Shown: piece by piece, positions 40,224 to 54,134 of the stretch
Layout of the letters: each line of letters begins with the position of its first letter
Numbering within the stretch: the first letter of the stretch is position 1
Assembly (NCBI GenBank): GCA_035516175.1
Contig: DATJAO010000062.1
Coordinates: forward strand, 14,040 to 78,039
From: Nitrospirota bacterium
GTDB lineage: Bacteria; Nitrospirota; UBA9217
Reading direction: 5' to 3'
DNA length: 64,000 nt
Notes under the pieces: model-generated
The model's input: only the letters and a program-made list of their open reading frames with translations
Databases searched by the model: none
Told to the model about the DNA's origin: nothing
Program-made: the position numbers and the translations under genes

Positions 40224-41114
40224 ATGTTTAAGGAAATAGCTATGAATGTCAGCGACAAATTTAAAAAGCGGGGGCAGGGGGTATCCCTCGAATTTTTCCC
40301 ACCCAAGTCCTCGGAGGCGAAAGATGCCTTCATGAAGGTAGTGAATGAGCTGAAGGCCTTTGACCCCCTCTACGTATCCGTGACCTATGGAGCAGGCGGA
40401 ACGACTCAGGACCGGACGCTTAACACCCTCAAATGGATCAAAAAAGAAACGGACCTGACGGTGATGTCGCATCTTACCTGTATTGGTGCAACGAAGATGT
40501 CCATGAGTGCACTCCTGAAGGAATATCAAGGCAGCGGAATCGATAACATCTTAGCCCTGCGCGGTGATCCACCGATGAACCGGCCTGACTTCGACCCAAC
40601 TCAGGGCGAGTTCAAATACGCCCGGAACCTTGTTGATTTCGTCAAGAAATATGATTATTTCTCCATCGCCGTGGCTGTGTATCCCGAAGGACACGCTCAG
40701 TCGCCGAGCATCGAGAAGGATATGGAATATACGAAGCAAAAGATCGACGCAGGGGCGGACTTCGGGATCACCCAAATGTTCTTCGACAATAGATACTACT
40801 ACGACTTCCTCGATCGGGCTGCGAAGCTCGGCATCACGATTCCCATCCTGCCGGGCATTATGCCGATCGTTGACTGCAAAAAGATCGTACAGCTTGCTGA
40901 GTTCTGCAATGCTTCCGTACCGAAGGCAATTCTGGACAGAATGGAGCCTGCTATGGACATGCCCGAGGAGATGAGGAAGCTGGGAGTCGAATACGCGGTG
41001 AAACAGTGCGAGGACCTGATAAAAAACGGCGTAAACTACCTTCACTTTTACACCATGAACCGCTCCGATTCAGTAAGTGAGATACTGAAAGCACTTCGAA
41101 TAGAAAGGCGATAG
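40224..41114 (+). CDS. metF: 5,10-methylenetetrahydrofolate reductase
   Basis: 296 aa. Motifs SLEFFPPK, YVSVTYGAGGTT, HLTCIG, ILALRGDPP, ITQMFFD and LHFYTMNR. An alternative start at 40242 (MNVSDKF) is possible. Confidence 0.9.
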   Translation: MFKEIAMNVSDKFKKRGQGVSLEFFPPKSSEAKDAFMKVVNELKAFDPLYVSVTYGAGGTTQDRTLNTLKWIKKETDLTVMSHLTCIGATKMSMSALLKEYQGSGIDNILALRGDPPMNRPDFDPTQGEFKYARNLVDFVKKYDYFSIAVAVYPEGHAQSPSIEKDMEYTKQKIDAGADFGITQMFFDNRYYYDFLDRAAKLGITIPILPGIMPIVDCKKIVQLAEFCNASVPKAILDRMEPAMDMPEEMRKLGVEYAVKQCEDLIKNGVNYLHFYTMNRSDSVSEILKALRIERR

Positions 41115-41437
41115 ATGAGAGAACAATGCCCTCATCGCCTCCCTAGGGGTGAGGAAAAATGCCACAGACGATGGGAAATTTTTCAGCTACTTTACAATTG
41201 AAGATAATCTCAATCAGTAGCTTTACGCTTTGCGTGCAGTGTCGTCACGCCTGTGCTTTTGATTATTGAACATGCATCTCAGGCGTTTAGTGCAAGAATG
41301 CGGGACGGAATATCTTCGAATTTCCGGTGATTTCAGTCTTGAGCAGACTGCCAGCATCCAGCTCTGCATGATCCCATGCTTATGCGGGACAAGCGTCAGC
41401 AACACTGATGGCGGCTTCACCGGACCGCCTTTTGGTC

Positions 41438-41453
41438 TGGCATCGCAAATGCA
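41438..41453 (+). promoter_or_regulatory. Sigma-54-type -24/-12 motif TGGCAT-N5-ATGCA
   Basis: TGGCATCGCAAATGCA has the GG-to-GC spacing of the TGGCAC-N5-TTGCW consensus. Caveat: the predicted transcript start (about 41464) is only about 4 nt before the ATG at 41468. Confidence 0.3.
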
Positions 41454-41467
41454 CATACTTTCTTGTC

Positions 41468-41797
41468 ATGAAAGAAATTATCCTCTGTTCGTCTAATCCC
41501 ATATTGATCAAAAACCTCTACTGCATTCTAAGAGACGAAGGGTACAACGTGGAAACCGTCGAACACCCCGCCCTCGCTGTCCAGATGGTTATGCTCAAGC
41601 AGTATGACTTCATCATCGTCGATTCGGAACCCTTTGGTCTCTCTGCGGAGGACGCGGTGCAGATCATCAAGACCGTGGTTCCCGGCATGCCTGTCCTTTT
41701 CGTAGGGAAAAAATGCGGCAAGGAATATACGCAGGCCGTTGAACCACCAGTCGACCTCGAGGAATTCAAGCGAACTATCCATGTCATGTCAGTCTGA
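41468..41797 (+). CDS. Stand-alone receiver (CheY-like) domain protein
   Basis: Start moved to the ATG at 41468 (MKEIILCSSNPILIKNLYCILRDEGYNVETV...YDFIIVDSEP). 109 aa with a receiver-like alternation. The acidic pocket is incomplete (no DD pair near the N-terminus). Confidence 0.55.
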   Translation: MKEIILCSSNPILIKNLYCILRDEGYNVETVEHPALAVQMVMLKQYDFIIVDSEPFGLSAEDAVQIIKTVVPGMPVLFVGKKCGKEYTQAVEPPVDLEEFKRTIHVMSV

Positions 41798-41831
41798 GTA
41801 GGTGATATCTCATTGTGCGAAGGGAGATGCT

Positions 41832-42860
41832 ATGAAACCGAAAGAAGTGATTTTCAAGGCATTCGAAGGGGGTAAGCCGGACAGACTTCCGGTGACCCTG
41901 TTTGGCGCAGGCATGTGGAGCATCAAGGGCTGGGGTACATCGTTCGAGGCTCTTTCACGGGACGCCGATAAGATGACCTCTATGCTCATCGACATGAGCG
42001 GGAAGCTCCAGTGTGACATCGTCTATCCGGGCTCGGGTTACAATAACTTTCATGCGTCGGCCCTGGGTGGGAAAATCAAGTGGCGGGAAATTGGCGCGCC
42101 GGACCTGGAGGACCATTTCGTCTCCTCCGAGGAGGATCTCGCGAAGCTTAGAATCAGCGACCTCGACAAGGACGAGGTCATCAACACCGTAAAGAAGGCC
42201 CTGCACAAAACGAAGGCGAAGATCGGCGACACCTACGCCGTGACGATGACGGCCTGGGGCCCTTTCACCCTCGGTGCGCGGCTGGTGGGTGAAGAGGCCA
42301 TGATGAAGGCCACGTTCAAGAAGCCCGCCTTCGTGGAGAAAGTTGTGGACTTCGCCACTGACGTACTGATCCATCTCTACGAGCCCATCGTCGCCGATAA
42401 GACGCTCGAGCTCATCAGCTTGGCCGACCCTACGGCGTCAGGCGACCTTATTTCCCGGAAACAGTTCGAGAAGTTCGCCGTGCCCTATCTCAAGAAATTC
42501 ACCGACTGGGCGAAGGCCCGGGGCGTCCATACTCTGGTGCACATCTGCGGCAACACAACGGACAGGCTGGACCTGTTCCCGCTTACCGGCGCCAGTTGCA
42601 TCAGCCTCGATCACAAGACTGACATCACCAAGGCCAAGGAGACGCTCCAAGGCAAAATGTGCTTCGGCGGGAACGTGGACCCCGTAAAGATCATGCTCAA
42701 CGGCTCTGTTCTGGACGTCGAGAATTGCTGCAAGGAGATCATCAAGGCCGCCGGTACCGACGGCGGATTCGTTCTCATGCCGGGGTGCGACATACCCCCA
42801 ACCGTTCCGTACGAGAATATCCAGAAGTTCATCCAAGTCGCGCGGGAATGGAAACTATGA
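41832..42860 (+). CDS. URO-D family methyltransferase, MtaA/CmuA-like (methylcobamide:thiol type), paralogue 1
   Basis: Start moved to the ATG at 41832 (MKPKEVIFKAFEGGKPDRLPV). H-x-C is in LVHICGNT (His codon at 42540). The distal Cys is in LMPGCDIPPTVP. Confidence 0.8.
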   Translation: MKPKEVIFKAFEGGKPDRLPVTLFGAGMWSIKGWGTSFEALSRDADKMTSMLIDMSGKLQCDIVYPGSGYNNFHASALGGKIKWREIGAPDLEDHFVSSEEDLAKLRISDLDKDEVINTVKKALHKTKAKIGDTYAVTMTAWGPFTLGARLVGEEAMMKATFKKPAFVEKVVDFATDVLIHLYEPIVADKTLELISLADPTASGDLISRKQFEKFAVPYLKKFTDWAKARGVHTLVHICGNTTDRLDLFPLTGASCISLDHKTDITKAKETLQGKMCFGGNVDPVKIMLNGSVLDVENCCKEIIKAAGTDGGFVLMPGCDIPPTVPYENIQKFIQVAREWKL

Positions 42861-42980
42861 ACAAAGGAGGTGAACCGATACTAGTTGTAGTGAGGGGAGA
42901 TTATCAAAGTGGGTATTTTGTAAGAGTTGAAAAAATTGTTTTCCCGGGCACAGAACGCGTCCGGGCAAGGGGAGGAAAAC

Positions 42981-43424
42981 ATGGCTGACAAGAAGATGAC
43001 AGTGGAAGAAGTGAACGAGTACATGAAAAAGCAGTGCGGCTTTGTGCCGAGAATGTTCCAGATCATCAACACCGTAACGCCGGAACCGGGCAGGACCTTC
43101 GCCGATTTCTACGCCAGCATCTTCGGCGATGGGGCCCTTTCCCGCAAGGTGAAAGAGCTGATGTTCATGTCCGGCGGAGTAGGTTACTGCTCGCCTCGCT
43201 GCATTATCCACGTGATCCCCGCGATCAATGCGGGTGCGACCACGGGAGAGATTTTCGAAGCGGCGTCGGTCGGCATGATCCTCGCGGGCTTTGTTCCCGG
43301 CGGGCCCGGCATTCCCTACGCCTTCGAGTACGCCCTGAAGTGCCTGGACATCGAGGCGAAGTACCGCAAGGGCGAGAAGTGGGAATACTTGCCGCAGCCG
43401 AAGTTCGATCATGGTGTGTTTTAA
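42981..43424 (+). CDS. Carboxymuconolactone decarboxylase (AhpD-like) family protein
   Basis: Start moved to the ATG at 42981, with GGAGGA upstream. Contains GALSRKVKELMFMSGGVGYCSPRCIIHVIPA, the AhpD/CMD-like helix with paired Cys and His. Confidence 0.7.
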   Translation: MADKKMTVEEVNEYMKKQCGFVPRMFQIINTVTPEPGRTFADFYASIFGDGALSRKVKELMFMSGGVGYCSPRCIIHVIPAINAGATTGEIFEAASVGMILAGFVPGGPGIPYAFEYALKCLDIEAKYRKGEKWEYLPQPKFDHGVF

Positions 43425-43438
43425 ATCCATTATTTAAT

Positions 43439-43462
43439 GGGGGAGCGTCGAAAAACTCCCCC
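43439..43462 (+). other. GC-rich hairpin GGGGGAG-N10-CUCCCCC immediately after the CMD gene
   Basis: Read directly. It has a 7-bp G/C stem but no U tract follows, so it is not a canonical intrinsic terminator. Confidence 0.3.
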
Positions 43463-43596
43463 GATTCTGACTCATACATTCATTCTTAAGCGATAGCGAC
43501 CTTCAAAGTAACTTGTGCACTTCATAATCACGCATTTGCTCCGGCCTACCCCGCATCTTACGGCGCTTGTCCGGGCAAGAGAAAAGGGGAGCGGTG

Positions 43597-44544
43597 ATGT
43601 TTCGGTTTAAACGAGATCAGAAAGTATATGTACTCGACGGGATTCGGGTCGGAGGGCAGGCCGGTGAGAACCCTCCGCTGTTGATTGCATCCATGTTTCA
43701 TAACAAGGACCGAATTGTTACAGACCGGAAAGGCAATTTCGACCACCAGAAAGCTGCAGAACTCATCAAGCAGCAGGAAAAACTTTCAACCTCCACCGGC
43801 ATCCCGTCCATGGTGGCCATGGTGGCGAACACCCCAGATGAGGCAAAGATCTACATCGACTTCTACCGTGAAACGACCACCATGCCCTTCGGCATCGACA
43901 TGTGGGTCGCCGAGAAGAGAGCCGAGGCCACGGAGTACGTGGCGAAGTTGGGACTGCAGGACAAGTTCTTGTACAACAGCATCACCCCCTGGGACAAGGA
44001 CATCAAGGGTCAGGTCCAGAAACTCAAAGACCTCGGAATCAAGCACGTTGTGGTCCAGGCCTTCGACGACGCTGACCAATCGCCCCTTGGGCGCCTGAAG
44101 TCATTGGAAAAAATTCTTGCCCAGGGCGCGGACAGCTTCAAGACCATCATCGTCGACACCTCCGTCATGAATCTGCCTGCCACATCGTTCTCGCTCGTTG
44201 CCAACCGCTTGATCAAAGAGACGCTCGGGCTTCCCTGCGGCGGCGCCTACTCCAACGGCACGCACATGTGGAAGGATGCGAAGACCATCTGGAGCCTCGA
44301 CGGTTTCAAGGCCATGGACGCCGTTGTCCAGGGCATGGCATCGGTGATCTGGAGCGATTTCAATTTCTACGGCCCCATCGTTACGGCGCCGCGCATCTTC
44401 CCGGCGGTAGCGGCAGCGCATATCCTGCTTACAACGCTGTTGTATGACGAAACTAAAAGAATTCCCGACAATCCCAATATCCCGATCAAGAAGTACTTCG
44501 GTGATTTTCTGGGCAAGCTAACGTCGGGGGCGGCGAGGAAATAG
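43597..44544 (+). CDS. MtrH-like methyltransferase (tetrahydromethanopterin S-methyltransferase subunit H family; pterin:corrinoid methyl transfer)
   Basis: Start moved to the ATG at 43597. MFRFKRDQKVYVLDGIRVGGQAGENPPLLIASMFHNKDRIVTDRKGNFDHQKAAELIKQQE follows the N-terminal pattern I recall for MtrH (MFRF..EQ.V.eigGvk.GGqpGE.PtvLigsiFy......D..G.FD...AE.Li). LYNSI is also present. Confidence 0.83.
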   Translation: MFRFKRDQKVYVLDGIRVGGQAGENPPLLIASMFHNKDRIVTDRKGNFDHQKAAELIKQQEKLSTSTGIPSMVAMVANTPDEAKIYIDFYRETTTMPFGIDMWVAEKRAEATEYVAKLGLQDKFLYNSITPWDKDIKGQVQKLKDLGIKHVVVQAFDDADQSPLGRLKSLEKILAQGADSFKTIIVDTSVMNLPATSFSLVANRLIKETLGLPCGGAYSNGTHMWKDAKTIWSLDGFKAMDAVVQGMASVIWSDFNFYGPIVTAPRIFPAVAAAHILLTTLLYDETKRIPDNPNIPIKKYFGDFLGKLTSGAARK

Positions 44545-44560
44545 AAAAAGGGAATTTTGG

Positions 44561-44661
44561 GGTAACCGCGGGTCAACTTCGTGGACTCACGGTTCGAACC
44601 AGATTCAGACAGTTGTCCGATTTTATCTGTGTGTCCTGACGAAGTCGGGACCCGTGGTTAC
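44561..44661 (+). other. About 100-nt element closed by a 13-bp inverted repeat, in the mtrH-like / mtaA-like intergenic spacer
   Basis: GTAACCGCGGGTC (44562-44574) pairs with GACCCGTGGTTAC (44649-44661) with one G-U pair. It stacks on a second helix, CTTCGTGGAC (44577-44586) with GTCC-TG-ACGAAG (44633-44644). Confidence 0.4.
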
Positions 44662-44705: not shown

Positions 44706-45734
44706 ATGGCAACAATGAATGCGCGAGAACGGGTACTGAAGATGTTCGCCGGTGAAGAGATCGATCGGCCTCCCTGCTTCAGCGGGATGGGCAATGTGAC
44801 TACGGAGGGCCTCAAGGGGCTCGGGCAGAACTTTGCGGCGACGCATCTCAACGCGAAGATGATGGCCGCGGCCGCGGCTTCGACCTACAAGCTCTTCGGC
44901 TTCGAATGCGGCGTGGCCCCCTTCGACCTCTGCATCGAGGCCGAGGCCATGGGATGCGAGATCAACGTGTATGCCCATTCAGAGGACCTGCTGTATCCCA
45001 CGATCAAGAAGAAGCTGATCCACAACGAAGCGGAATTGGACATCTCCATACCCTCCAATCTCACAACGCGCGGAAGGGTGCCGCTCATGAAGGAGACGAT
45101 CCAACTGCTCAAGAAGGATATCGGCAGCGAAGCGCCCATCGGTTCCTACGTGCTCGGGCCCTTCACGCTGGCCGGACAAATCATGGAACTGAACGATTTG
45201 CTGAAGCTGTCCTTCAAAAAGCCGGACAAGATCGGGAAGCTTCTCGATCAGATGGCGGACGTGATCATCCGGGTGGCGAAGGAGTACGAACAGGCCGGTG
45301 TGGACTTCATAACGGTGCGGGAGATGGGGGCGACGTCGGACGTTCTGAGCCCGCGGGTGTTCAAGAGCCTGATCCTGCCGTACCTCAAAAAGATCTTCGA
45401 AAAACTGAACGTGCCGAGCGTGCTCCACATCTGCGGCAAGACGAATGACATCGTCCCGTTCATGGCCGAGAGCGGTTCGAAAGCGATCAGCGTGGACCAG
45501 AAGAACGACGTTGCCGAGACACGCAAGAAGCTCGGCCCCAAGGCGCTGGTCTTCGGGAACTATGACCCTTACAACGTGTTGGTAGCGGGCTCGCCGGACC
45601 TGGTGCGCCAGACCATCAAGAAATGCATGGATGACGGAGTGACCGCAGTCTGGCCCGGCTGCGACATCTGGCCGACGGTGCCGCCGGATAACATGAAGGC
45701 CATGATGGACGAAGTTAAAAATTACCGGAGGTGA
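44706..45734 (+). CDS. URO-D family methyltransferase, MtaA/CmuA-like (methylcobamide:thiol type), paralogue 2
   Basis: 342 aa. N-terminus ERVLKMFAGEEIDRPPCFSG. H-x-C is in VLHICGKT (His codon at 45426). The distal Cys is in VWPGCDIWPTVP. Confidence 0.8.
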   Translation: MATMNARERVLKMFAGEEIDRPPCFSGMGNVTTEGLKGLGQNFAATHLNAKMMAAAAASTYKLFGFECGVAPFDLCIEAEAMGCEINVYAHSEDLLYPTIKKKLIHNEAELDISIPSNLTTRGRVPLMKETIQLLKKDIGSEAPIGSYVLGPFTLAGQIMELNDLLKLSFKKPDKIGKLLDQMADVIIRVAKEYEQAGVDFITVREMGATSDVLSPRVFKSLILPYLKKIFEKLNVPSVLHICGKTNDIVPFMAESGSKAISVDQKNDVAETRKKLGPKALVFGNYDPYNVLVAGSPDLVRQTIKKCMDDGVTAVWPGCDIWPTVPPDNMKAMMDEVKNYRR

Positions 45735-45738
45735 TCCT

Positions 45739-46431
45739 ATGGTTACGGAAGAAAAAAAGGCGGAGCTCTTGGCGAAACTGCGGAACGCCGTGATCCAGTA
45801 CGATGAGGATACGGCCAAGGAAGCGGCTCAAGAGGCACTGGACGTTGGCATGGAAGCGAACGACGCCATTTTCAACGGTTTGGTGAGCGGCATGGTGGAA
45901 GTGGGAAAAATGTTCGAGGCGCAGGAATACTTCGTGCCCGAACTGCTCATGTGCGCCGACGCGCTGTACGCCGGCCTGGATATCCTGAAGCCCCATGTGA
46001 AACAGCTGGACCTGGGGGTGAAGGGCTCGGTCGTGATCGGGACCGTGGAAGGCGACGTTCACGATATCGGCAAGAACATCGTGAAGATGATGTTCGACGT
46101 GGCCGGTTTCACGGTCTATGACCTAGGCAGGGACGTGCCGCTCGACAAGTTTGTGCAAGAGCAGCTCCGGACCGATTCCGACCTTGTCTGCCTTTCGGCC
46201 ATGATGACTACAACGATGACGGGAATGAAGAAAGTGATCGACGACCTTCGGACCAGAAACCCCAATGTGAAGATCATGATCGGCGGAGCTCCCGTTTCCC
46301 AGGACGTGGCGGACAAGTACGGCGCAGACGGATACGCAAAAGACGCGACCAACGCATTGAAGGACGCCATCAACATGATCGCGTCCCTCAAGAAGATGAA
46401 GGATGAGGTGGAAGCCAAGAAGGCGAAATGA
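45739..46431 (+). CDS. Methyltransferase cognate corrinoid protein (B12-binding, MtaC/MtbC/MttC-like)
   Basis: 230 aa. N-terminal helical cap, then the DxHxxG motif in VEGDVHDIGKNIV, followed by LSAMMTTTM and IMIGGAPV. Confidence 0.9.
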   Translation: MVTEEKKAELLAKLRNAVIQYDEDTAKEAAQEALDVGMEANDAIFNGLVSGMVEVGKMFEAQEYFVPELLMCADALYAGLDILKPHVKQLDLGVKGSVVIGTVEGDVHDIGKNIVKMMFDVAGFTVYDLGRDVPLDKFVQEQLRTDSDLVCLSAMMTTTMTGMKKVIDDLRTRNPNVKIMIGGAPVSQDVADKYGADGYAKDATNALKDAINMIASLKKMKDEVEAKKAK

Positions 46432-47078: not shown

Positions 47079-47184
47079 GTGCGGAAAGAAAAACGTCATT
47101 CCCGCATAAATGGGAATCCAAGGTGTCATCTGTGATCATCTGTGGCTAACCATTGCAGATGTGTTTTTATTATCGGGAGGAAGA

Positions 47185-49389: not shown

Positions 49390-49707
49390 ATGACAACGGT
49401 CGTCGTCAACTCCGGAGCGTGCGGTTTTACGATCACTATAAAGGCCAAGAAGGGAAAAGAAAGGAAGATCGACATATCCCTGAACACGGCCTGTGAGATG
49501 GTGCAGAAGATGCTTGCCGATATCGCGACCGTGGACCATAGGGTGACGCTCATAGGTTTCCGCGACAATCCGGTCTATGTGTCCGCGGCGAAGCACCTCA
49601 AACACGTAGCTTGTCCGGTTCCGTCGGCGATACTGAAAGCCATTGAGACGGAAACAGGCATGAACGTGCCAAAGGATGCTCGGATAGAGTTCGTCCGGGA
49701 GGAATGA
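49390..49707 (+). CDS. Small Cys-containing hypothetical protein
   Basis: Start moved to the ATG at 49390 (MTTVVVNSGACGFTITIKAKKGK), with GAGGA about 11 nt upstream. 105 aa. No motif recognised. Confidence 0.45.
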   Translation: MTTVVVNSGACGFTITIKAKKGKERKIDISLNTACEMVQKMLADIATVDHRVTLIGFRDNPVYVSAAKHLKHVACPVPSAILKAIETETGMNVPKDARIEFVREE

Positions 49708-49785
49708 CGGTGCTGGTGGCTTTCCCATTATCCCGTACGAAGCCAATGTGTTATACTGATATTACCACTTTGGGAATGGGCGGCC

Positions 49786-50472
49786 ATGGGTACGATAGTG
49801 ATTGTTGCTGCATATGGTGTGTATGCGGCGTTCTGGATACGGTTCTTGCTGCATGCACTGCTTTGGTGGAAGGCGGTGACACGGCCCGCCACGATCGTCG
49901 GACCTTTGTCGCCATCGTCTGTCAAGGCATGGGCCTTTTCGGCACGGGACGTGGTCCTTTTCTGGAGACTTTTAAAAGTCAACCCAGCGCTGTGGTTCGG
50001 CGAATGGCTGTTCCATGTGTCGTTCCTGTTCGTTATCATGCGGCACCTGCGCTATGTTTTTCTCCCCGTCCCGGAGTGGGTATGGTGGTTCCAGATTCCC
50101 GGGCTGATCGCCGGATATATCCTTCCTCTGTCCCTGCTCTATATCTTCATCGTCCGGATGTTCTCGGTCCGGGAAAAATATTCTACGCCTGCCAACATGG
50201 TTCTGTTGGGCCTGCTGTTCGTGATCAGTTCCCTTGGCCTGCTGATGGTCACTCTGTTCAGGACCGATGTCGTGGCGGTAAAATTGTTCACCATCGGCAT
50301 CCTGAGCGTTACACCGGCCGCTGTGCCGGGCAGCATCCTGTTCCTGCTGCATTTTTCCCTGGTCTTGATCCTGATCCCTTTACTCCCGACCCACATCCTG
50401 ACCGCTCCGTTGGTGATGCTGGAGGCGAGGAAACGGGATTTGGGGCTTCCCCTGGTGATGCATGAAGAATAA
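49786..50472 (+). CDS. NarI/HdrE/DsrM-like integral membrane cytochrome b-type subunit
   Basis: 228 aa with about five hydrophobic helices. Conserved-looking His residues sit in helices (FLLHALLWW, WLFHVSFLFVIMRHL, LLHFSL, PTHIL). The 3' end overlaps the HdrD-like gene by 11 nt. Confidence 0.6.
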   Translation: MGTIVIVAAYGVYAAFWIRFLLHALLWWKAVTRPATIVGPLSPSSVKAWAFSARDVVLFWRLLKVNPALWFGEWLFHVSFLFVIMRHLRYVFLPVPEWVWWFQIPGLIAGYILPLSLLYIFIVRMFSVREKYSTPANMVLLGLLFVISSLGLLMVTLFRTDVVAVKLFTIGILSVTPAAVPGSILFLLHFSLVLILIPLLPTHILTAPLVMLEARKRDLGLPLVMHEE

Positions 50473-51664
50473 GCAGTCATTTACCGAAGATCTTTCGCCC
50501 CGGCAAATCCTTGAAATCGACGCTTGCACCCAGTGTGGCGAGTGCCTGAAGCACTGCCCCGTACAGGACGTGACGGGCAACCCCGCGGTTTCACCACCGG
50601 AGAAGATCCGCATGTTCCGTGAGTTCATCCGTGCCTCTGACGGTCTTAAGGCCAAGCTCTTCGGGCCGGGCGAGGTGGACCGTAAACTGCTTGAGGATTT
50701 CACCCGGGCAGTATTTGAATGTACTACCTGCGGAGCCTGCGGCCAGAACTGCCCCGTCGGCATTTTCACACAGCGGCTCTGGCCCATGCTCAGGAAAGAG
50801 ATGGTAAAGCGGGGCCTCGGCCCCATCGGCATCCAGGCGAACTTGCCGAAGGCCATTACGAGCAGCGGCAATCCCTATGATAAGCCTGCAGCCGATCGTT
50901 ACCGGCCCTGGTTCCCGGAGAATGCAAAGGTGGCCGACCGGGCGGACGTGGCCTATTACGCCGGATGCACGGGCTCCTATGAGGCGCAGCCCATGGTGCG
51001 CGGAGACGCCCTCGTGCTGGGCGCCATGGGTGAGCCATTCACCATGCTGCCACCGGACGAGGAGGTCTGCTGTGGATTCCCGCTCTTCATCACGGGACAG
51101 CACGACCTGCTCGAGGACCTGGTCAAGAGGCTTGTGGAAGGATACAAGGCCAAGGGCGTACGGACGCTCGTCTGTTCGTGCCCCTGCTGCGTGAACATCA
51201 TGTCGCGGGACTGGCCAGCGATCTACGGCCATGAGCTGCCCTTCACGATACGGCATATTACCCAGTTCGTTGCTACAGCCATGGAGCAGGGAAAACTTCG
51301 TATCTCGAAAGAACTGCACGAACGGGTGATCTACCACGACCCCTGCTATCTCAGCAGGGGAGTTGGAGTCATTGAGGAGCCCCGTGAGGTGCTCCGGCGC
51401 ATCCCCGGGCTCACGCTGCTTGAGTTCGAGCGGCACGGCCTGAACTCGCGCTGCTGCGGCTCCGGCGGCGCCGCACGGAAGGTGTTTCATGAGAATGCCA
51501 TCAAGATGGGAAGGCTGACGATCGACGAGGCTGTCAAAAAAAAGGCGGATCGGTTGATCCTGTCCTGTCCCGCGTGCTACGCCAAGGTGAACGAGGCAAT
51601 GCAGGAGCATGACAAGCAGATCAGGATCACCGACATCATGGAACTGATTTCAAGTTTGATTTAA
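50462..51664 (+). CDS. HdrD/DsrK-like Fe-S oxidoreductase (two 4Fe-4S motifs plus two CCG domains)
   Basis: 400 aa. Cluster motifs CTQCGECLKHCP and CTTCGACGQNCP. CCG motifs EVCCGFP and SRCCGSGG, with DPCY between them. Confidence 0.85.
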   Translation: MKNKQSFTEDLSPRQILEIDACTQCGECLKHCPVQDVTGNPAVSPPEKIRMFREFIRASDGLKAKLFGPGEVDRKLLEDFTRAVFECTTCGACGQNCPVGIFTQRLWPMLRKEMVKRGLGPIGIQANLPKAITSSGNPYDKPAADRYRPWFPENAKVADRADVAYYAGCTGSYEAQPMVRGDALVLGAMGEPFTMLPPDEEVCCGFPLFITGQHDLLEDLVKRLVEGYKAKGVRTLVCSCPCCVNIMSRDWPAIYGHELPFTIRHITQFVATAMEQGKLRISKELHERVIYHDPCYLSRGVGVIEEPREVLRRIPGLTLLEFERHGLNSRCCGSGGAARKVFHENAIKMGRLTIDEAVKKKADRLILSCPACYAKVNEAMQEHDKQIRITDIMELISSLI

Positions 51665-51756
51665 AATGGCGACTTGCCTGCTTACAGGCTTTAAAGCTTT
51701 TACTATGTTCATCCGTGGTTAATGTGGGTTCCGGATTTTGTCGAAGGTGAGACATC

Positions 51757-53013
51757 ATGAGCCATTATTCCATACGATGCAGGAAGTGCGGAAAGATCCT
51801 TGGGAATTCCTACTGCGCCGACTGCGAGCACTGTAAAGATGCTCTCCTCGTGACCGAGTATCGCAATCACCTCTTCATGGAGAGCGGGGCGAAGGGCGTC
51901 TGGAGGTTTAACTGGCTTCCAGTCCATCAGCCTCATTCCGTCCAACCGGGACCAGTCGTGTATCGTTCCATCGGTCTCGCGGAGCATCTCAGCCTCAAGG
52001 AGCTCTTCATCGCTTTCAACGGCTACTGGCCAGAGAAAGGGGCGCTGCTCGAGACCTGTACCTTCAAGGAGTTTGAGGCCGCCGTAGTGCTCCAGAACGC
52101 CCGGGAGAACGGTGTCGGTGGCCTGATCGTCGCATCGGCGGGGAACACTGCGCGGGCCTTCGCGCACCTTTCGGCGAAGAAGGGCTTGCCGGTGGTCATC
52201 GTTGTGCCGCGGATGTGTCTGACAGAAATGTGGTATCTCGAAAGCTCTTCCTTGGTGCCCACGCTGGCCGTGGGAGACGGCGACTACTCGGACTCCATCG
52301 ATGTGGCGAAGCGCATCGCCCTGACCACGGGCTTCCCGTTTGAGGGAGGAGTAAAGAATATCGCAAAACGAGACGGCCTCGGTATCGTGATGCTTGAGGC
52401 GGTTTCGAAGATAGGAAAACTGCCGGACCACTATGTCCAGGCCGTAGGAAGCGGCACCGGCGCAGTCGGAGGCTGGGAAATGGCAGAGCGGCTCGTCAGG
52501 GACGGTAGGTTCGGTACGCGCCTGCCGAAACTCCACCTGGGGCAAAACGTGCCCTTTGTGCCCATGCTCCATGCCTGGGAGAAAGGTAGCAGGTCTTTGT
52601 TTCGCGAGGACCTGAATCCCGAGCTTATCGGCCACATCACAACGCGCGTGCTTTCGACCCGCTACCCGGCCTATTCGGTGCAAGGCGGCGTGTTCGATGC
52701 CCTTACCTCGGCCGGCGGCGGAATGTACGGCGTTGAGAACGAGGCGGTATATGCAGCAATGGACGAGTTCCTCAAGACCGAGGGGATCGACCTTGTTCCT
52801 GCATCGGGTGTCGCCGTAGCTGTGCTCAAAGATGCCGTGCGGAAAGGCACGATCGGGAAGAGCGATACCATCCTTCTGAACATCACCGGCGGTGGCGAGG
52901 CGCGGTTACGGAAGGATAAGCAGACCCATATGGTCATCCCGAAGTTCATATCGAAGAACGCGACGGAGAAAGATATCGAGGACCTGCTGTGCCACGACCT
53001 GAAGAAGAGTTAA
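51757..53013 (+). CDS. Cysteate synthase-like PLP enzyme (threonine synthase fold)
   Basis: 418 aa. N-terminal Cys-rich ribbon RCRKCGK...CADCEHC. The lysine region TCTFKEFEA replaces the PTGSFKDRG motif of true threonine synthases. SAGNTARAFA is present. The 3' end overlaps a ComDE-like gene. Assigned from recalled family features and gene context. Confidence 0.6.
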   Translation: MSHYSIRCRKCGKILGNSYCADCEHCKDALLVTEYRNHLFMESGAKGVWRFNWLPVHQPHSVQPGPVVYRSIGLAEHLSLKELFIAFNGYWPEKGALLETCTFKEFEAAVVLQNARENGVGGLIVASAGNTARAFAHLSAKKGLPVVIVVPRMCLTEMWYLESSSLVPTLAVGDGDYSDSIDVAKRIALTTGFPFEGGVKNIAKRDGLGIVMLEAVSKIGKLPDHYVQAVGSGTGAVGGWEMAERLVRDGRFGTRLPKLHLGQNVPFVPMLHAWEKGSRSLFREDLNPELIGHITTRVLSTRYPAYSVQGGVFDALTSAGGGMYGVENEAVYAAMDEFLKTEGIDLVPASGVAVAVLKDAVRKGTIGKSDTILLNITGGGEARLRKDKQTHMVIPKFISKNATEKDIEDLLCHDLKKS

Positions 53014-54134
53014 TAGCAATACTGAAAAGGAACGGTGTAGATTTCACCGCATCGCTCCCCTGTGAGAAGATCAAGACCTTGCTCGAGATGGTAGGCCGGT
53101 CCTTCACTCACCTTCCGCTGACGAGGGAAGAGGAGGGCGTGGGCATCTGCGCCGGCGCGGCCCTCGCTTGCAGGAAGCCGGCTATGTTTGTTCAAAGTTC
53201 AGGAATCGGGAACATGATCAATGCCCTGCTCTCCCTCACGGCGTTCTATGAACTTCCCCTTGCCCTGTTCGTGAGTCGGAGGGGAATTTACAAGGAGAAG
53301 ATCGAGGCTCAGTTCCCCATGGGCCGGCGGCTCCCTAGCATCCTGACAGGCGCAGGGATCAATCATGCCGAAATAAACAGCAGAGAAGATTTCAGTATTG
53401 TGGAACAGAAGCTTCAGCACGTGTATCCCAAGAGCAGCATCCATGCATTTCTGTTAAGCCCGGCTATATGGGAAAATTCCGAGTGCGAAGTGTCTAGTGT
53501 GGAGTGCGGGATTAAAAAAGACAAAAAAACTCCTGAGACTTTGGGCGAAAGGCGAGAAGCAAAAGTAAGGCAACATGCGCAGTTGACCCGGTACGAGATC
53601 ATCAGGCTAATCGCATCGTACCTTGACAGGAAAGTCGTTGTCAGTAATCTCGGCTGGCCTTCCAAGGAACTCTATGCTCTAAAGCATCAGCCCTCGAATT
53701 TCTACATGCTGGGAAGTATGGGGATGGTCACGCCCATCGGACTAGGCATCGCGCTTACGTCATCTAAAGAAATCATCGTGATCGACGGCGACGGCAGCCT
53801 GCTCATGAATCCCGGCAGCCTCGCAACGGCAGCCTCTGTTGCGCCATACAATCTAACCATCATCGCCATCGATAACGGTGCATACGGCTCAACAGGAAAC
53901 CAGCCGACGCTGGCTGGGACCTGCGTAGATCTTGAATACGTGGCGCAGGGGTTCGGGATCAGGAATACCGTGAAAGTGGCGAGTGAAGAGCAGATTGTTG
54001 GAGTGATGCAGAAACCGCGGTCTGGGCTGACTTTTATTCACGTCTTGGCTATTCCGGGAAACAGGGACGTGCCGAATATCCCCCTGCACCATCTGGAAAT
54101 TAAAAAGCAGGTGCAGGAATTTTTGAAGAGATGA
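52989..54134 (+). CDS. comDE: Sulfopyruvate decarboxylase, fused alpha-beta (ComDE-like, ThDP-dependent)
   Basis: 381 aa. LPLTREEEGVGICAGAALA and RRGIYKEKIEAQFPMGRRL match what I recall of ComD (PVTREEEGIGICAGAYLAG, RG...EKI.AQ.PMGR), not phosphonopyruvate decarboxylase. The C-terminal half has the ThDP motif VIDGDGSLLMN...IDNGAYGSTG. GTG start, uncertain. Confidence 0.78.
   Translation: MPRPEEELIAILKRNGVDFTASLPCEKIKTLLEMVGRSFTHLPLTREEEGVGICAGAALACRKPAMFVQSSGIGNMINALLSLTAFYELPLALFVSRRGIYKEKIEAQFPMGRRLPSILTGAGINHAEINSREDFSIVEQKLQHVYPKSSIHAFLLSPAIWENSECEVSSVECGIKKDKKTPETLGERREAKVRQHAQLTRYEIIRLIASYLDRKVVVSNLGWPSKELYALKHQPSNFYMLGSMGMVTPIGLGIALTSSKEIIVIDGDGSLLMNPGSLATAASVAPYNLTIIAIDNGAYGSTGNQPTLAGTCVDLEYVAQGFGIRNTVKVASEEQIVGVMQKPRSGLTFIHVLAIPGNRDVPNIPLHHLEIKKQVQEFLKR

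What the first reader, a model, noticed from the sequence alone, without database searches (positions are those of the whole stretch)
40224..54134. Single-strand 14-gene block joining MetF, MtrH-like/MtaA-like corrinoid methyl transfer, an HdrED-like membrane module and coenzyme M precursor enzymes in a bacterium
Seen in sequence: all 14 ORFs from 40224 to 54134 are on the + strand. Junctions range from 4-25 nt overlaps to gaps of at most about 350 nt.
Gene order: metF, receiver-like protein, MtaA/URO-D paralogue 1, AhpD-like protein, MtrH-like protein, MtaA/URO-D paralogue 2, corrinoid protein (DxHxxG), QueG-like Fe-S protein, RamA-type activase, small Cys protein, NarI/HdrE-like protein, HdrD-like protein (2x CCG), cysteate synthase-like protein, fused ComDE-like protein.
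Context: the flanking genes (parAB, mnmEG, yidC, sigma-54 activator, lipoproteins) are bacterial.
Established knowledge: in methanogens, MtrH, MtaA-type methylcobamide:CoM methyltransferases, RamA, HdrDE and cysteate synthase/ComDE all serve methyl-CoM and heterodisulfide chemistry.
Inference: this could be a corrinoid-dependent methyl shuttle between a pterin (MtrH-like, MetF) and a self-made sulfonate thiol (CoM-like), redox-linked to the quinone pool through the HdrED-like pair, without MCR.
Alternative: it could be an Mto-like O-demethylase (URO-D, MtrH-like, corrinoid, RamA) whose neighbours are only coincidentally adjacent.
I do not recall this combination being described as a unit in bacteria.
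Basis: partly seen in the sequence, partly recalled or inferred. Interest (0 to 1): 0.9.

Follow-up and report, generated by a model that had tools for sequence, protein, structure and literature searches.

The report
Bacterial coenzyme M-linked methyl-transfer operon
An uncultured Nitrospirota bacterium, like about a hundred related species, carries one operon joining vitamin B12-dependent methyl-transfer enzymes, a membrane disulfide reductase and two archaeal-type coenzyme M synthesis genes, which suggests an anaerobic bacterial use of a cofactor known mainly from methanogens.

Summary
All 14 + strand genes are present and every family call was confirmed. Corrections: the membrane gene is 49786-50472, and the activase is bacterial RACo-type.

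The block is a conserved unit. Across 80 species-level Nitrospirota genomes and further metagenome contigs the order is receiver-URO-D1-AhpD-like-MtrH-URO-D2-corrinoid protein-FeS-RACo-DUF6951-NarI-like-HdrD-cysteate synthase-ComDE. Nearly every locus with enough sequence keeps it. A conserved sigma-54 promoter precedes the receiver gene. metF lies outside this operon and is optional.

Cysteate synthase and ComDE pass their curated cut-offs. Both URO-D paralogues keep the His-Cys-Cys zinc site of thiol methyltransferases, which disfavours an O-demethylase.

Related clusters in other phyla share the methyltransferase core. The URO-D1/AhpD-like pair, usually with a NarI/HdrD pair, appears only where there is a sulfonate supply: cysteate synthase/ComDE, or an embedded Ssu-type ABC importer. 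Methanosarcina imports CoM with a transporter of that type.

Best reading (about 0.5): a split methionine-synthase-like machine moves methyl groups between tetrahydrofolate and a self-made CoM-like sulfonate thiol. A quinone-linked HdrDE-like reductase keeps that thiol reduced. Direction, physiological substrate and the final CoM-forming step are unknown. I found no published description.

The parts
34528..35481 (-). Cytoplasmic SsuA-family (NMT1_2) ligand-binding protein without a signal peptide. Candidate sulfonate sensor.
   Evidence: Pfam NMT1_2. Its only NCBIfam hit is SsuA_fam. The N-terminus MKIRIGHLST has no signal peptide. Homologues lie downstream of the block, next to a kinase and a sigma-54 regulator, in L013, L020, L025 and L143; NMT1_2 homologues also follow the block in L017 and about nine other loci.
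35617..37647 (+). PAS/GAF histidine kinase
   Evidence: Pfam families listed. It travels with the block in other loci.
37769..39100 (+). Sigma-54-dependent response regulator (receiver, AAA+ and Fis HTH domains)
   Evidence: Pairs with the conserved sigma-54 promoter.
39093..39962 (-). CobW/COG0523 GTPase metallochaperone, divergent from the block
   Evidence: Present upstream in 8 of 11 metagenome relatives and in L018 and L019. A COG0523 subfamily is known to co-localise with corrinoid methyltransferases (PMC2770081).
40224..41114 (+). MetF, methylene-tetrahydrofolate reductase. Accessory gene outside the sigma-54 operon.
   Evidence: TIGR00676, 342 against 294. Found at this position in 4 of 11 relatives with coverage.
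41438..41453 (+). Sigma-54 -24/-12 promoter element TGGCATCGCAAATGCA
   Evidence: The same element, TGGCA[CT]-N5-[AT]TGCA, was found in all 14 related loci with upstream coverage. In 12 it lies 358-388 nt before URO-D1, as in the window (364 nt); in L042 and L104 it lies at 254 and 592 nt.
41469..41797 (+). Small degenerate receiver-domain protein, first gene of the operon. The ORF opens at 41408; the likely start is 41469.
   Evidence: Response_reg, 27 bits against a cut-off of 30. Conserved in 11 of 11 loci.
41802..42860 (+). URO-D/MtaA-like zinc methyltransferase, paralogue 1
   Evidence: Pfam URO-D. Below all NCBIfam cut-offs. H247-x-C249 and C329 are invariant in 24 of 24 sequences. Orthologues (48% identity) occur only in clusters with an Ssu-type transporter.
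42981..43424 (+). AhpD/CMD-like protein with a CxxCxxH motif
   Evidence: It is the most conserved protein of the block, typically 83-100% identical across the Nitrospirota relatives, with a few distant loci at 60-76%. Orthologues of 68-72% identity occur in L087 and L088.
43567..44544 (+). MtrH-family methyl-pterin:corrinoid methyltransferase
   Evidence: NF002142, 320 against 287. Solved relatives include the D. hafniense methylcorrinoid:tetrahydrofolate methyltransferase 6sj8. It is fused to the URO-D2 orthologue in L087.
44706..45734 (+). URO-D/MtaA-like zinc methyltransferase, paralogue 2
   Evidence: PRK06252, 281 against 244; TIGR01463, 251 against 235. M. mazei MtaA 4ay7, E 4e-48. H241-x-C243 and C319 are invariant in 49 of 49 sequences.
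45739..46431 (+). Corrinoid protein (B12-binding_2 plus B12-binding, DVHDIG)
46428..47078 (+). QueG/RDH-like 2x[4Fe-4S] protein, found only in the Nitrospirota version
   Evidence: Present in 52 of 53 loci. Absent from the out-group clusters.
47110..49161 (+). RACo-type ATP-dependent reductive activator of corrinoid proteins
   Evidence: Fer2, RACo_linker, Raco_middle and RACo_C_ter domains. AcsV-like, 475 bits.
49393..49707 (+). DUF6951, about 105 aa, with three invariant cysteines and a conserved histidine
   Evidence: It accompanies MtrH/URO-D/corrinoid/RACo clusters in several phyla.
49786..50472 (+). NarI/DsrM/HdrE-like membrane protein, putative di-haem cytochrome b
   Evidence: Hydrophobic 228-aa product. 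H77, H87, H189 and H203 are invariant. hhalign to the Nitrate_red_gam-positive homologues gives 95.7% probability, E 8.5e-9.
50462..51664 (+). HdrD-like iron-sulfur protein (two [4Fe-4S] motifs plus two CCG domains)
   Evidence: The best curated match is thiol:fumarate reductase TfrB, 183 bits, below its cut-off. Present upstream of cysteate synthase in 73 of 75 loci.
51757..53013 (+). Cysteate synthase
   Evidence: TIGR03844, 463 against 325. Solved cysteate synthase 9k3c, E 5e-89, against threonine synthases at about 1e-11.
52989..54134 (+). Fused sulfopyruvate decarboxylase ComDE
   Evidence: Alpha 179 against 148; beta 222.1 against 221.5; phosphonopyruvate decarboxylase 210 against 312.5, which fails. 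It follows cysteate synthase in 74 of 74 loci.
54294..54917 (-). Conserved convergent neighbour of unknown family (207 aa)
   Evidence: No Pfam or NCBIfam hit. Homologues lie just downstream in 32 or more loci.

Best explanation
The block is a sigma-54-controlled operon (about 41469-54134) of an uncultured Nitrospirota bacterium. metF and a CobW-type metallochaperone gene sit beside it. It combines three modules.

1. A cobamide methyl-transfer machine built like a split methionine synthase.
- An MtrH-family enzyme exchanges methyl groups between methyl-tetrahydrofolate and the corrinoid protein.
- Two MtaA-like zinc (His-Cys-Cys) enzymes exchange methyl groups between the corrinoid protein and thiols or thioethers.
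- RACo, perhaps fed by the QueG-like FeS protein, restores Co(I) at the cost of ATP.

2. A sulfonate-thiol supply.
- Cysteate synthase makes cysteate from phosphoserine and sulfite.
- A general aminotransferase gives sulfopyruvate.
- ComDE gives sulfoacetaldehyde.
- Sulfoacetaldehyde is then converted with sulfide and two electrons to coenzyme M or a close analogue. The enzyme for this step was not identified. The reaction may be uncatalysed.

3. A thiol/disulfide module.
- The AhpD-like CxxC protein, together with a NarI-like di-haem cytochrome b and an HdrD-like CCG protein, forms an HdrDE- or DsrMK-like quinol:disulfide oxidoreductase.
- This module keeps the sulfonate thiol reduced, or recovers it from its disulfide.

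Net function: methyl exchange between the tetrahydrofolate C1 pool and a CoM-like thiol. URO-D paralogue 1 is probably specific for the sulfonate thiol. Paralogue 2 probably serves a second methylated sulfur or other C1 substrate.

Shown here: the gene families, the operon-level conservation, the promoter, the zinc ligands, and the pattern of cysteate synthase/ComDE versus Ssu-type importer.

Inferred: that the thiol is CoM, that it is a methyl acceptor or donor, the substrate of the HdrD-like enzyme, and the direction and physiological purpose of the flux.
For: Conservation.
- ComDE follows cysteate synthase in 74 of 74 loci, and HdrD precedes it in 73 of 75.
- Among the 53 loci with at least 9.9 kb upstream, MtrH, URO-D2, the corrinoid protein and RACo are present in 53, and DUF6951 and the FeS protein in 52.
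- Among DUF6951-anchored metagenome contigs, 16 of 16 have HdrD, the membrane gene and ComDE, and 15 of 16 have cysteate synthase.
- A sigma-54 promoter is conserved in 14 of 14 loci. The SsuA-like protein, kinase and sigma-54 regulator trio travels with the block, upstream or downstream.

Enzyme identity.
- Cysteate synthase and ComDE pass their equivalog cut-offs, and cysteate synthase matches the solved enzyme.
- The gene pair is adjacent as in the M. acetivorans cs-comDE-MMP16 operon (PMC12068725).
- Zinc ligands of the thiol-methyltransferase type are invariant in both paralogues (criterion).
- MtrH and URO-D2 are fused in L087.
- FolD is inserted in 8 loci, and MetF is adjacent in some.

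Out-group clusters.
- The core (MtrH, URO-D, corrinoid protein, RACo, DUF6951, often CobW) occurs in Desulfotomaculum, a Deltaproteobacteria-labelled contig, Dehalococcoidales and Anaerolineae.
- URO-D1 and AhpD-like orthologues occur only together with an Ssu-type ABC importer (L087, L088, L174).
- NarI/HdrD pairs occur in four of the five Ssu-importer clusters: L087, L173, L174 and L163, which keeps ComDE.

Transporter type.
- These substrate-binding proteins best match SsuA_fam.
- They have homologues of 58-59% identity in Methanocellales.
- M. acetivorans uses an SsuABC-type transporter specifically for CoM. CoM starvation there induces ssuAC, cs, comDE and hdrABC together.
Against: - No ComF/MMP16 or other COG1900 protein is encoded in the window or in any fetched locus. 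The last step to CoM is therefore unsupported, and the rest of the genome could not be searched.
- The beta-subunit model of ComDE is passed by only 0.6 bits. The nearest solved TPP enzyme is labelled putative phosphonopyruvate decarboxylase.
- Neither URO-D reaches the MtaA or MtbA equivalog cut-offs. Their nearest relatives are bacterial, at 40-59% identity, and the first archaeal relative is at about 36%.
- MtaA accepts many short thiols (PMC13618148), so similarity does not fix the substrate.
- Without MCR, methyl-CoM has no known sink. Thioether-to-folate methyl transfer is thermodynamically uphill (general knowledge). The physiological purpose is therefore unexplained.
- The pattern of cysteate synthase/ComDE versus Ssu-type importer rests on five out-group clusters with an importer and three without.
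- Two GTDB loci and one metagenome locus (L018, L019, L164) lack the NarI/HdrD pair.
Confidence: 0.5

Rival explanations
1. The methyltransferase genes form an ordinary bacterial methyl-X:tetrahydrofolate system for methylated sulfur or selenium compounds such as methanethiol, dimethylsulfide or methylselenides. The sulfonate made by cysteate synthase/ComDE is not a methyl carrier. It would be a co-regulated low-molecular-weight thiol, redox buffer or osmolyte. The AhpD-like protein and HdrD/NarI would service that thiol pool, or reduce disulfides of the methylthiol substrates.
For: - The same core, without any sulfonate genes, exists in Desulfotomaculum, a Deltaproteobacteria-labelled contig and Dehalococcoidales. 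In L170 it comes with a thioredoxin and a reductase-like protein.
- Kountz and Balskus link MtaA-like clusters to methyl-sulfur and methyl-selenium metabolism.
- Extra CoM protects methanogens from oxidative stress (abstract of PMC12713407).
- The window encodes a probable selenoprotein.
Against: - The URO-D1 and AhpD-like pair appears only where a sulfonate supply is present. This points to a direct enzymatic link rather than parallel functions.
- Cysteate synthase and ComDE lie inside the same sigma-54 operon in essentially every locus with coverage.
Confidence: 0.25
2. The system is a halomethane (chloromethane or dichloromethane) dehalogenating methyltransferase system like Cmu or the mec cassette, feeding C1 units to tetrahydrofolate.
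For: - The mec cassette also combines an MtaA/CmuA-family enzyme, an MtrH-family enzyme, a corrinoid protein, a reductive activator and a kinase/regulator pair.
- The habitats overlap (peat, groundwater).
Against: - It gives no role to cysteate synthase, ComDE, the Ssu-type importers, the AhpD-like protein or HdrD/NarI.
- The remaining mec proteins listed (MecC, MecI, MecG and the MecJ cation transporter/antiporter) were not recognised among the block's Pfam families, and no ion transporter or antiporter gene is present. This is a domain-level check only.
- The nearest relatives were not labelled as known dichloromethane degraders.
Confidence: 0.05
3. The system is an Mto/Odm-like aryl methyl ether O-demethylase whose HdrD and cysteate synthase/ComDE neighbours are coincidental.
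For: The component types (URO-D, MtrH-like, corrinoid protein, activase) match O-demethylase systems. The habitats are rich in lignin-derived methoxylated aromatics.
Against: - The neighbours are not coincidental: 73 of 75 and 74 of 74 loci.
- Both URO-D paralogues have invariant His-Cys-Cys ligands. UroD-family O-demethylases replace the cysteines by carboxylates or non-ligands (PMC10418091).
Confidence: 0.04
4. The ThrC-like and TPP enzymes are a threonine-synthase-like enzyme and a phosphonopyruvate decarboxylase that make a phosphonate. This would be unrelated to CoM.
For: Phosphonopyruvate decarboxylase is the second-best model (210 bits), and the nearest solved structure carries that label.
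Against: - The score is below the phosphonopyruvate decarboxylase cut-off of 312.5, while both sulfopyruvate decarboxylase models are passed.
- The partner is clearly a cysteate synthase.
- No PEP mutase appears in the window or in the annotated loci.
Confidence: 0.03

Closest known systems
Methanosarcina CoM methyl-transfer and CoM homeostasis set: MtaA/MtbA/MtsA with their corrinoid proteins, HdrDE, the cs-comDE-MMP16 operon and the SsuABC CoM importer
   Same: - MtaA-like zinc methyltransferases with His-Cys-Cys ligands, and a corrinoid protein.
- An HdrD-type CCG protein with a cytochrome b partner.
- Cysteate synthase next to a fused ComDE.
- In related bacterial clusters, an Ssu-type importer.
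   Different: - The host is bacterial.
- There is no MCR, no MtrA-G, no ComF/MMP16 and no sign of CoB.
- The pterin partner is presumably tetrahydrofolate, given MetF and FolD.
- The activase is RACo, not RamA.
- All functions sit in one sigma-54 operon.
- The methyltransferases are only about 30-40% identical to the archaeal enzymes.
Bacterial corrinoid methyl-X:tetrahydrofolate systems, such as Desulfitobacterium hafniense MtgABC with RACE
   Same: An MtrH-family methylcorrinoid:tetrahydrofolate methyltransferase (solved relative 6sj8), a corrinoid protein and a RACo-type activase.
   Different: - The substrate-side enzymes are two MtaA-like thiol-type URO-D proteins rather than an MttB-family enzyme.
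- The Nitrospirota operon adds a sulfonate biosynthesis pair, an AhpD-like protein, DUF6951 and an HdrDE-like module.
Type 1 mlp gene clusters (Kountz and Balskus 2023, PMC10418091)
   Same: Several MtaA-like proteins with His-Cys-Cys sites, a corrinoid protein and a bacterial RACE. Both are found in strict anaerobes. Sulfur or selenium methyl metabolism is proposed.
   Different: - Type 1 clusters lack a folate methyltransferase. This operon has an MtrH-family enzyme.
- That paper does not mention cysteate synthase, sulfopyruvate, MtrH or Nitrospirota (term search).
- Whether the URO-D proteins here fall in the Mlp1-3 clades was not tested.
mec cassette of anaerobic dichloromethane degraders
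   Same: An MtaA/CmuA-family enzyme, an MtrH-family enzyme, a corrinoid protein, a reductive activator and a two-component regulator in one cassette.
   Different: - The other mec components were not recognised.
- This operon has sulfonate biosynthesis and disulfide-reductase genes that mec lacks.
DsrMK(JOP)/DsrC and HdrDE quinol-linked disulfide or trisulfide reductases
   Same: A NarI-type di-haem b membrane subunit plus a cytoplasmic CCG-domain FeS subunit. Small cysteine proteins are encoded alongside.
   Different: - The score is below the DsrK equivalog cut-off (86 against 400).
- The best curated match is TfrB, the CoM/CoB thiol:fumarate reductase subunit.
- The membrane subunit is too divergent to hit Pfam Nitrate_red_gam directly.
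Cobalamin-dependent methionine synthase MetH (functional analogy)
   Same: The logic of a zinc-thiolate module, a pterin module, a B12 module and a reactivation module. It is echoed by the MtrH::URO-D fusion in L087.
   Different: - The components are separate polypeptides from different families.
- Reactivation is ATP- and electron-dependent (RACo), not SAM-dependent.
- There are two thiol modules.
Bacterial CoM pathway of Xanthobacter autotrophicus Py2 (PMC9457059)
   Same: It would also give a bacterium CoM.
   Different: - It is a different, PEP-based pathway (ComA plus Xcb enzymes).
- It operates in aerobic alkene metabolism.
- No cysteate synthase or ComDE is involved.

Membership tests
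Cysteate synthase (TIGR03844) | Scores above the curated equivalog cut-off and well above the threonine synthase models | tested here: met
   463 bits against a cut-off of 325. The best threonine synthase model gives 87 bits against 303.
Cysteate synthase (TIGR03844) | Closer to an experimentally solved cysteate synthase than to threonine synthases | tested here: met
   9k3c 'Cysteate synthase', E 4.8e-89 and 302 bits. Threonine synthases give E of about 1e-11 and about 46 bits.
Cysteate synthase (TIGR03844) | Catalyses phosphoserine + sulfite -> cysteate | not testable with these tools
   Needs an enzyme assay.
Sulfopyruvate decarboxylase ComDE | Passes the alpha and beta subunit equivalog models and fails the phosphonopyruvate decarboxylase model | tested here: met
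   Alpha 179.1 against 147.95. Beta 222.1 against 221.5, which is marginal. Phosphonopyruvate decarboxylase 209.6 against 312.5.
Sulfopyruvate decarboxylase ComDE | Genomic partner is a sulfopyruvate-forming route, not PEP mutase | tested here: met
   It directly follows cysteate synthase in 74 of 74 loci. No PEP mutase appears among the annotated genes.
Complete archaeal type 2 CoM pathway (cysteate synthase, aminotransferase, ComDE, ComF/MMP16) | A ComF/MMP16 (COG1900 with ferredoxin insert) CoM synthase is present | tested here: inconclusive
   None was recognised among the Pfam-annotated genes of the window or among the recurrent, annotated ORF families of the 80 GTDB loci; many rare ORFs in those loci were not annotated. 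The rest of the genomes could not be searched. Methanosarcina lacking MMP16 still makes CoM at 0.4 mM sulfide or more.
Methylcobamide:CoM methyltransferases MtaA/MtbA/MtsA | URO-D fold with His-x-Cys...Cys zinc ligands | tested here: met
   Aligned to M. mazei MtaA 4ay7. The ligands are invariant in 24 of 24 and 49 of 49 orthologues.
Methylcobamide:CoM methyltransferases MtaA/MtbA/MtsA | Reaches the curated MtaA or MtbA equivalog scores | tested here: not met
   URO-D2 scores 252 against 400 (MtaA) and 191 against 600 (MtbA). URO-D1 scores 143 and 155. Only the broad subfamily models are passed, and only by URO-D2: 281 against 244 and 251 against 235.
Methylcobamide:CoM methyltransferases MtaA/MtbA/MtsA | CoM is the methyl acceptor | not testable with these tools
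   Only contextual evidence is available: cysteate synthase/ComDE or Ssu-type importers in the same clusters.
HdrDE heterodisulfide reductase | HdrD architecture of two [4Fe-4S] motifs plus two CCG domains | tested here: met
   Fer4_8/Fer4_17 plus two CCG stretches. The motifs are visible in the sequence.
HdrDE heterodisulfide reductase | Membrane di-haem cytochrome b partner of the NarI fold, encoded adjacently | tested here: met
   The gene overlaps HdrD by 11 nt. Four histidines are invariant. hhalign to Nitrate_red_gam-positive homologues gives 95.7% probability. Haem binding is inferred.
HdrDE heterodisulfide reductase | Substrate is CoM-S-S-CoB, which requires CoB | not tested
   No CoB biosynthesis genes were seen, but whole genomes were not searchable. 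A homodisulfide or mixed disulfide is assumed instead.
Mtr complex (MtrA-H) | Membrane subunits MtrA-G accompany MtrH | tested here: not met
   Only an MtrH-family protein is present. The block is therefore not an Mtr complex.
Type 1 mlp gene cluster | Two or more MtaA-like proteins plus a corrinoid protein plus a RACE | tested here: met
Type 1 mlp gene cluster | No folate methyltransferase in the cluster, and Mlp2 and Mlp3 clade membership | tested here: not met
   An MtrH-family folate-type methyltransferase is present in every locus. Clade membership was not tested because no reference sequences were available.
UroD-family aryl ether O-demethylases (OdmB, VdmB) | One or both zinc cysteine ligands replaced by carboxylate or non-ligand residues | tested here: not met
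   Both cysteines are invariant in both paralogues. The criterion comes from PMC10418091.

The most novel reading that the evidence does not exclude
A widespread clade of uncultured anaerobic Nitrospirota makes coenzyme M by the archaeal cysteate route. It uses CoM as a methyl carrier between tetrahydrofolate and methylated substrates, and cycles CoM disulfide at a quinone-linked HdrDE-like complex. This would be an MCR-free bacterial counterpart of the methanogen Mtr/Mta/Hdr core. Relatives in Chloroflexota and other phyla would run the same chemistry on imported CoM.
Probability: 0.3. Interest if true: 0.9.

Novelty: new variant of a known kind. Interest (0 to 1): 0.8.

Why it matters
[quoted passage not shown] In bacteria it is known only from aerobic alkene oxidation, where a different pathway makes it.

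A conserved operon in about a hundred species-level lineages of anaerobic Nitrospirota would change that picture. It couples archaeal-type CoM precursor synthesis to MtaA/MtrH-type methyl transfer and an HdrDE-like reductase. This would point to:
- a new anaerobic bacterial use of CoM or a close analogue;
- an unrecognised route in methyl-sulfur and C1 cycling in groundwater, peat and sediments;
- a source or sink of CoM shared with methanogens;
- gene exchange between methanogens and bacteria for a whole functional set.

It also gives testable roles to two orphan families, DUF6951 and the AhpD-like protein. It matters for metagenome annotation too, because cysteate synthase, comDE, mtaA, mtrH and hdrD hits in these bacteria could be misread as methanogen signals.

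Tried and rejected
- Wrong-frame ORF. The ORF 49704-50465 that I first used for the membrane protein gave a proline-, arginine- and cysteine-rich nonsense product. I replaced it with 49786-50472.
- DUF6951 structure. The AlphaFold2 model from a 38-sequence alignment reached a mean pLDDT of only 50.8, so I ran no fold search.
- Membrane protein against solved structures. A profile search of PDB sequences found nothing meaningful. Only the profile-profile link to NarI-like homologues worked.
- Rfam scan. No match at the gathering threshold, so no cobalamin riboswitch was found.
- Terminator and sigma-70 promoter scans. Counts were at chance level.
- Sigma-54 pattern. The count in the window alone was also at chance, 27 against 28 expected. 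Only its conservation across 14 loci made it meaningful.
- Literature. Six full-text searches and targeted reads found no description of cysteate synthase/ComDE with methyltransferases in Nitrospirota or other bacteria. The library is incomplete, so this is not proof of absence.
- DUF6951 homologue search. It returned almost only close relatives and no functional names.
- Whole-genome questions. I could not ask whether mcr, comABC, MMP16, CoB or H4MPT genes exist elsewhere in these genomes.
- Reference phylogeny. I considered a phylogeny of the URO-D paralogues with Mlp1-3, MtaA, MtbA, MtsA and O-demethylases. No reference sequences could be fetched. I used curated model scores, the ranking of 50% representatives and source names instead.

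Full report
**Observation.** The region 40224-54134 holds 14 consecutive + strand ORFs.
- MetF (TIGR00676, 342 bits against a cut-off of 294).
- A weak receiver domain.
- Two URO-D/MtaA-CmuA proteins.
- An AhpD/CMD-like protein with CSPRCIIH.
- An MtrH-family protein (NF002142, 320 against 287).
- A corrinoid protein with DVHDIG.
- A QueG/RDH-like double-cluster ferredoxin.
- A RACo-type activase with an N-terminal 2Fe-2S domain.
- DUF6951.
- An HdrD-like protein with two ferredoxin motifs and two CCG domains.
- Cysteate synthase (TIGR03844, 463 against 325).
- A fused sulfopyruvate decarboxylase (alpha 179 against 148; beta 222.1 against 221.5; phosphonopyruvate decarboxylase model 210 against 312.5).

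Three corrections are needed. First, the ORF 49704-50465 is a wrong-frame artefact. The real membrane gene is 49786-50472. Second, DUF6951 most likely starts at 49393, because its homologues are about 105 aa long. Third, the activase is the bacterial RACo/AcsV type rather than archaeal RamA. The flanks are bacterial housekeeping genes. The window is part of a 98.9-kb metagenome contig.

**Whose genome, and is the block a unit?** Close homologues of the cysteate synthase (75-94% identity) are numerous. Where they are named, they come from Nitrospirota or Nitrospiraceae MAGs, with one labelled Betaproteobacteria. A scan of one genome per GTDB species found 143 relatives. The best 80 are labelled almost without exception Nitrospirota, Thermodesulfovibrionia or Candidatus Sulfobium.

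tblastn and ORF maps of these loci show one order throughout: receiver, URO-D1, AhpD-like, MtrH, URO-D2, corrinoid protein, FeS, RACo, DUF6951, membrane protein, HdrD, cysteate synthase, ComDE.

The counts are as follows:
- ComDE follows cysteate synthase in 74 of 74 loci.
- HdrD precedes cysteate synthase in 73 of 75 loci.
- Of the 53 loci with at least 9.9 kb upstream, all have MtrH, URO-D2, the corrinoid protein and RACo. Fifty-two have DUF6951 and the FeS protein, and 51 have HdrD.

An independent scan of metagenome contigs anchored on DUF6951 found 445 relatives. Where the contig is long enough:
- HdrD, the membrane gene and ComDE are present in 16 of 16, and cysteate synthase in 15 of 16.
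- All upstream genes from the receiver to RACo are present in 11 of 11.
- The divergent CobW gene is present in 8 of 11, and MetF in only 4 of 11.

Eight loci carry FolD between DUF6951 and the membrane gene. Some loci carry a second membrane/HdrD pair. Three loci (L018, L019, L164) lack the pair.

**Regulation.** A -24/-12 element, TGGCATCGCAAATGCA, lies at 41438-41453, just before the receiver gene. In the window alone such matches occur at the chance rate. However, the same element, TGGCA[CT]-N5-[AT]TGCA, is present in all 14 related loci with upstream sequence. In 12 it lies 358-388 nt before URO-D1, as in the window (364 nt); in L042 and L104 it lies at 254 and 592 nt.

The window encodes a sigma-54 response regulator, a PAS/GAF kinase and a cytoplasmic SsuA-family protein just upstream (34528-39100). 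In other loci the same trio lies downstream of the block. The unit is thus a 13-gene sigma-54 operon. metF and cobW are neighbours, and the likely sensor belongs to the sulfonate-binding-protein family.

**Individual proteins.**
- Both URO-D paralogues align to M. mazei MtaA (4ay7). They keep its H-x-C...C zinc ligands. The ligands are invariant in 24 of 24 and 49 of 49 orthologues. According to Kountz and Balskus (PMC10418091), His-Cys-Cys marks sulfur or selenium methyltransferases of this superfamily. O-demethylases replace the cysteines.
- URO-D2 passes only the broad MtaA/CmuA and 'methylcobalamin:CoM methyltransferase' subfamily models. Neither paralogue reaches the MtaA or MtbA equivalog scores.
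- In a search of 1.8 billion 50%-identity representatives, the nearest relatives of URO-D2 are bacterial: Anaerolineae 55%, Desulfotomaculum 54%, Desulfobacterales 45%, Dehalococcoidales 40%. The first archaeal relative, Methanonatronarchaeum, is at 36%.
- The MtrH-like protein's solved relatives include true MtrH subunits and the D. hafniense methylcorrinoid:tetrahydrofolate methyltransferase.
- The membrane protein has four invariant histidines. It is linked by profile-profile comparison (95.7% probability, E 8.5e-9) to homologues in sister loci that hit Pfam Nitrate_red_gam.
- The best curated match of HdrD is TfrB, the CoM/CoB thiol:fumarate reductase subunit, below its cut-off.
- The cysteate synthase matches the solved cysteate synthase 9k3c at E 5e-89, against about 1e-11 for threonine synthases.
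- The nearest solved relative of ComDE is labelled putative phosphonopyruvate decarboxylase. Its assignment therefore rests on the curated cut-offs and on its invariable partner.

**Comparison outside the phylum.** The contexts of the nearest non-Nitrospirota URO-D2 relatives show a wider family of clusters. The shared core is MtrH, one to four URO-D genes, a corrinoid protein, RACo and DUF6951, often with CobW.
- Without any sulfonate genes: Desulfotomaculum L085 and L086, a Deltaproteobacteria-labelled contig L170, and Dehalococcoidales L171.
- With an Ssu-type ABC importer embedded in the cluster: Anaerolineae L088, L087, L173 and L174.

Several points follow.
- Orthologues of URO-D1 (48% identity) and of the AhpD-like protein (68-72%) occur only in the importer-containing clusters (L174 by domain content).
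- A NarI/HdrD pair is present in L087, L173 and L174.
- One Nitrospirota-like contig, L163, has RACo, SsuABC, DUF6951, the membrane protein, HdrD and ComDE, but no cysteate synthase.
- In L087 the MtrH and URO-D2 orthologues are one fused protein. In L173 the corrinoid protein and the binding protein are called as one gene.
- The binding proteins best match the SsuA family. They have homologues of 58-59% identity in Methanocellales MAGs, where they form a stand-alone ssuABC-like operon.
- In M. acetivorans an SsuABC-type transporter is CoM-specific. CoM starvation there induces ssuAC, cs, comDE and hdrABC together. The genes cs, comDE and MMP16 are adjacent (PMC12068725).

The bacterial clusters thus attach, in alternative combinations, the same functions that serve CoM supply and redox state in a methanogen. 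They do so together with a specific methyltransferase paralogue.

**Mechanism proposed.**
- MtrH-like enzyme plus corrinoid protein plus a zinc URO-D plus RACo is a split analogue of methionine synthase. It moves a methyl group between methyl-tetrahydrofolate and a thiol.
- Cysteate synthase and ComDE supply sulfoacetaldehyde. Its thiolation gives CoM or a near analogue.
- URO-D2 is common to all clusters. It probably handles another methyl donor or acceptor.
- The NarI-like/HdrD pair links the thiol/disulfide couple to the quinone pool.
- CobW is a plausible metallochaperone, because a COG0523 subfamily co-localises with corrinoid methyltransferases (PMC2770081).

The gene content, conservation, motifs and co-occurrence are shown. 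The identity of the thiol, its role as a methyl carrier, the HdrD substrate and the direction of flux are inferred.

**Weak points.**
- No ComF/MMP16 is seen, and whole genomes could not be searched.
- MtaA-type enzymes accept many short thiols (PMC13618148).
- There is no known sink for methyl-CoM without MCR.
- Methyl transfer from a thioether to folate is uphill.
- The out-group sample is small.

**Rivals.**
1. The sulfonate is a redox buffer or osmolyte that is merely co-regulated with a methyl-sulfur or methyl-selenium:folate system. This remains possible, at about 0.25. It is weakened by the exclusive association of URO-D1 and the AhpD-like protein with a sulfonate supply.
2. A halomethane system like mec shares the core. 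It explains none of the sulfonate or disulfide genes.
3. The O-demethylase and phosphonate readings are contradicted by the tests above.

**Novelty.** Six full-text searches and several targeted reads found no description of this combination. The closest published concept, the type 1 mlp gene cluster, lacks a folate methyltransferase. That paper does not mention cysteate synthase, sulfopyruvate, MtrH or Nitrospirota. The three recognised CoM pathways are two archaeal ones and the unrelated Xanthobacter one. I therefore rate the finding as a new variant of known kinds (corrinoid methyltransferase systems and the archaeal CoM pathway). It has high interest because it makes the question of anaerobic bacterial CoM use directly testable.

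Noticed in passing
window about 10191-10991 (-), in-frame TGA at 10476-10478: A GrdB-family (PF07355) ORF called as 171 aa continues in frame through a TGA ('...LTPG*GICNQ...') for about 95 more residues. It is probably a selenocysteine-containing protein, so this organism probably decodes Sec.
   Followed up: partly
window 16998-17285 (-): A small ORF matches DUF6952, the Pfam family numbered next to DUF6951. It sits between pgi and mnmE, away from the operon.
   Followed up: no
window 10000-16000, including 11476-13887 (-): The GC content dips to 0.45-0.49 around a 745-803 aa ankyrin-repeat protein. This may be horizontally acquired.
   Followed up: no
L002 (JGI 3300032783 contig, 6.2 kb), 4864-6057: This contig has essentially the same HdrD, cysteate synthase, ComDE and orf207 proteins as the window (99-100% by tblastn). 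After orf207 it carries a Transposase_mut gene where the window has FKBP. This is strain-level variation at the operon's 3' border.
   Followed up: no
L087 9900-11888: A single 662-aa protein fuses an MtrH-family domain to the URO-D2 orthologue. This links the folate and thiol half-reactions physically.
   Followed up: partly
L173 4456-6201 (P0496): A 581-aa gene product carries B12-binding_2 and B12-binding domains followed by an SsuA-like (NMT1_2) domain. It could be a real fusion of corrinoid protein and binding protein, or a gene-calling artefact.
   Followed up: no
L172 10001-12624 (Methanocellales MAG GCA_038850275.1): A stand-alone ssuABC-like operon has a binding protein 58% identical to the one embedded in the bacterial methyltransferase cluster L087. 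This is unusually high identity across domains.
   Followed up: partly
L004, L045, L059, L069, L074, L075, L078, L079, between DUF6951 and the membrane gene: FolD (methylene-tetrahydrofolate dehydrogenase/cyclohydrolase) is inserted inside the operon in eight species.
   Followed up: partly
L170 15180-19283: A Deltaproteobacteria-labelled relative of the methyltransferase core carries a thioredoxin, a thioredoxin-reductase-like flavoprotein, DUF2284 and three CobW genes. It has no AhpD-like protein or HdrD.
   Followed up: no
L087 12622-18590 and L174 15470-21032: In the importer-type clusters, a Rieske protein, a cytochrome b and a c-type cytochrome lie between the corrinoid protein and the NarI/HdrD pair. 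This resembles a bc-complex-like module.
   Followed up: no
L015 (JBLMWN010000096.1): The only locus labelled Betaproteobacteria carries the typical Nitrospirota operon at 78-89% identity. The contig was probably mis-binned.
   Followed up: no
window 54294-54917 (-): A conserved convergent gene has no family match. Its C-terminal end looks like a small DNA-binding domain. Homologues follow the operon in more than 30 loci.
   Followed up: partly
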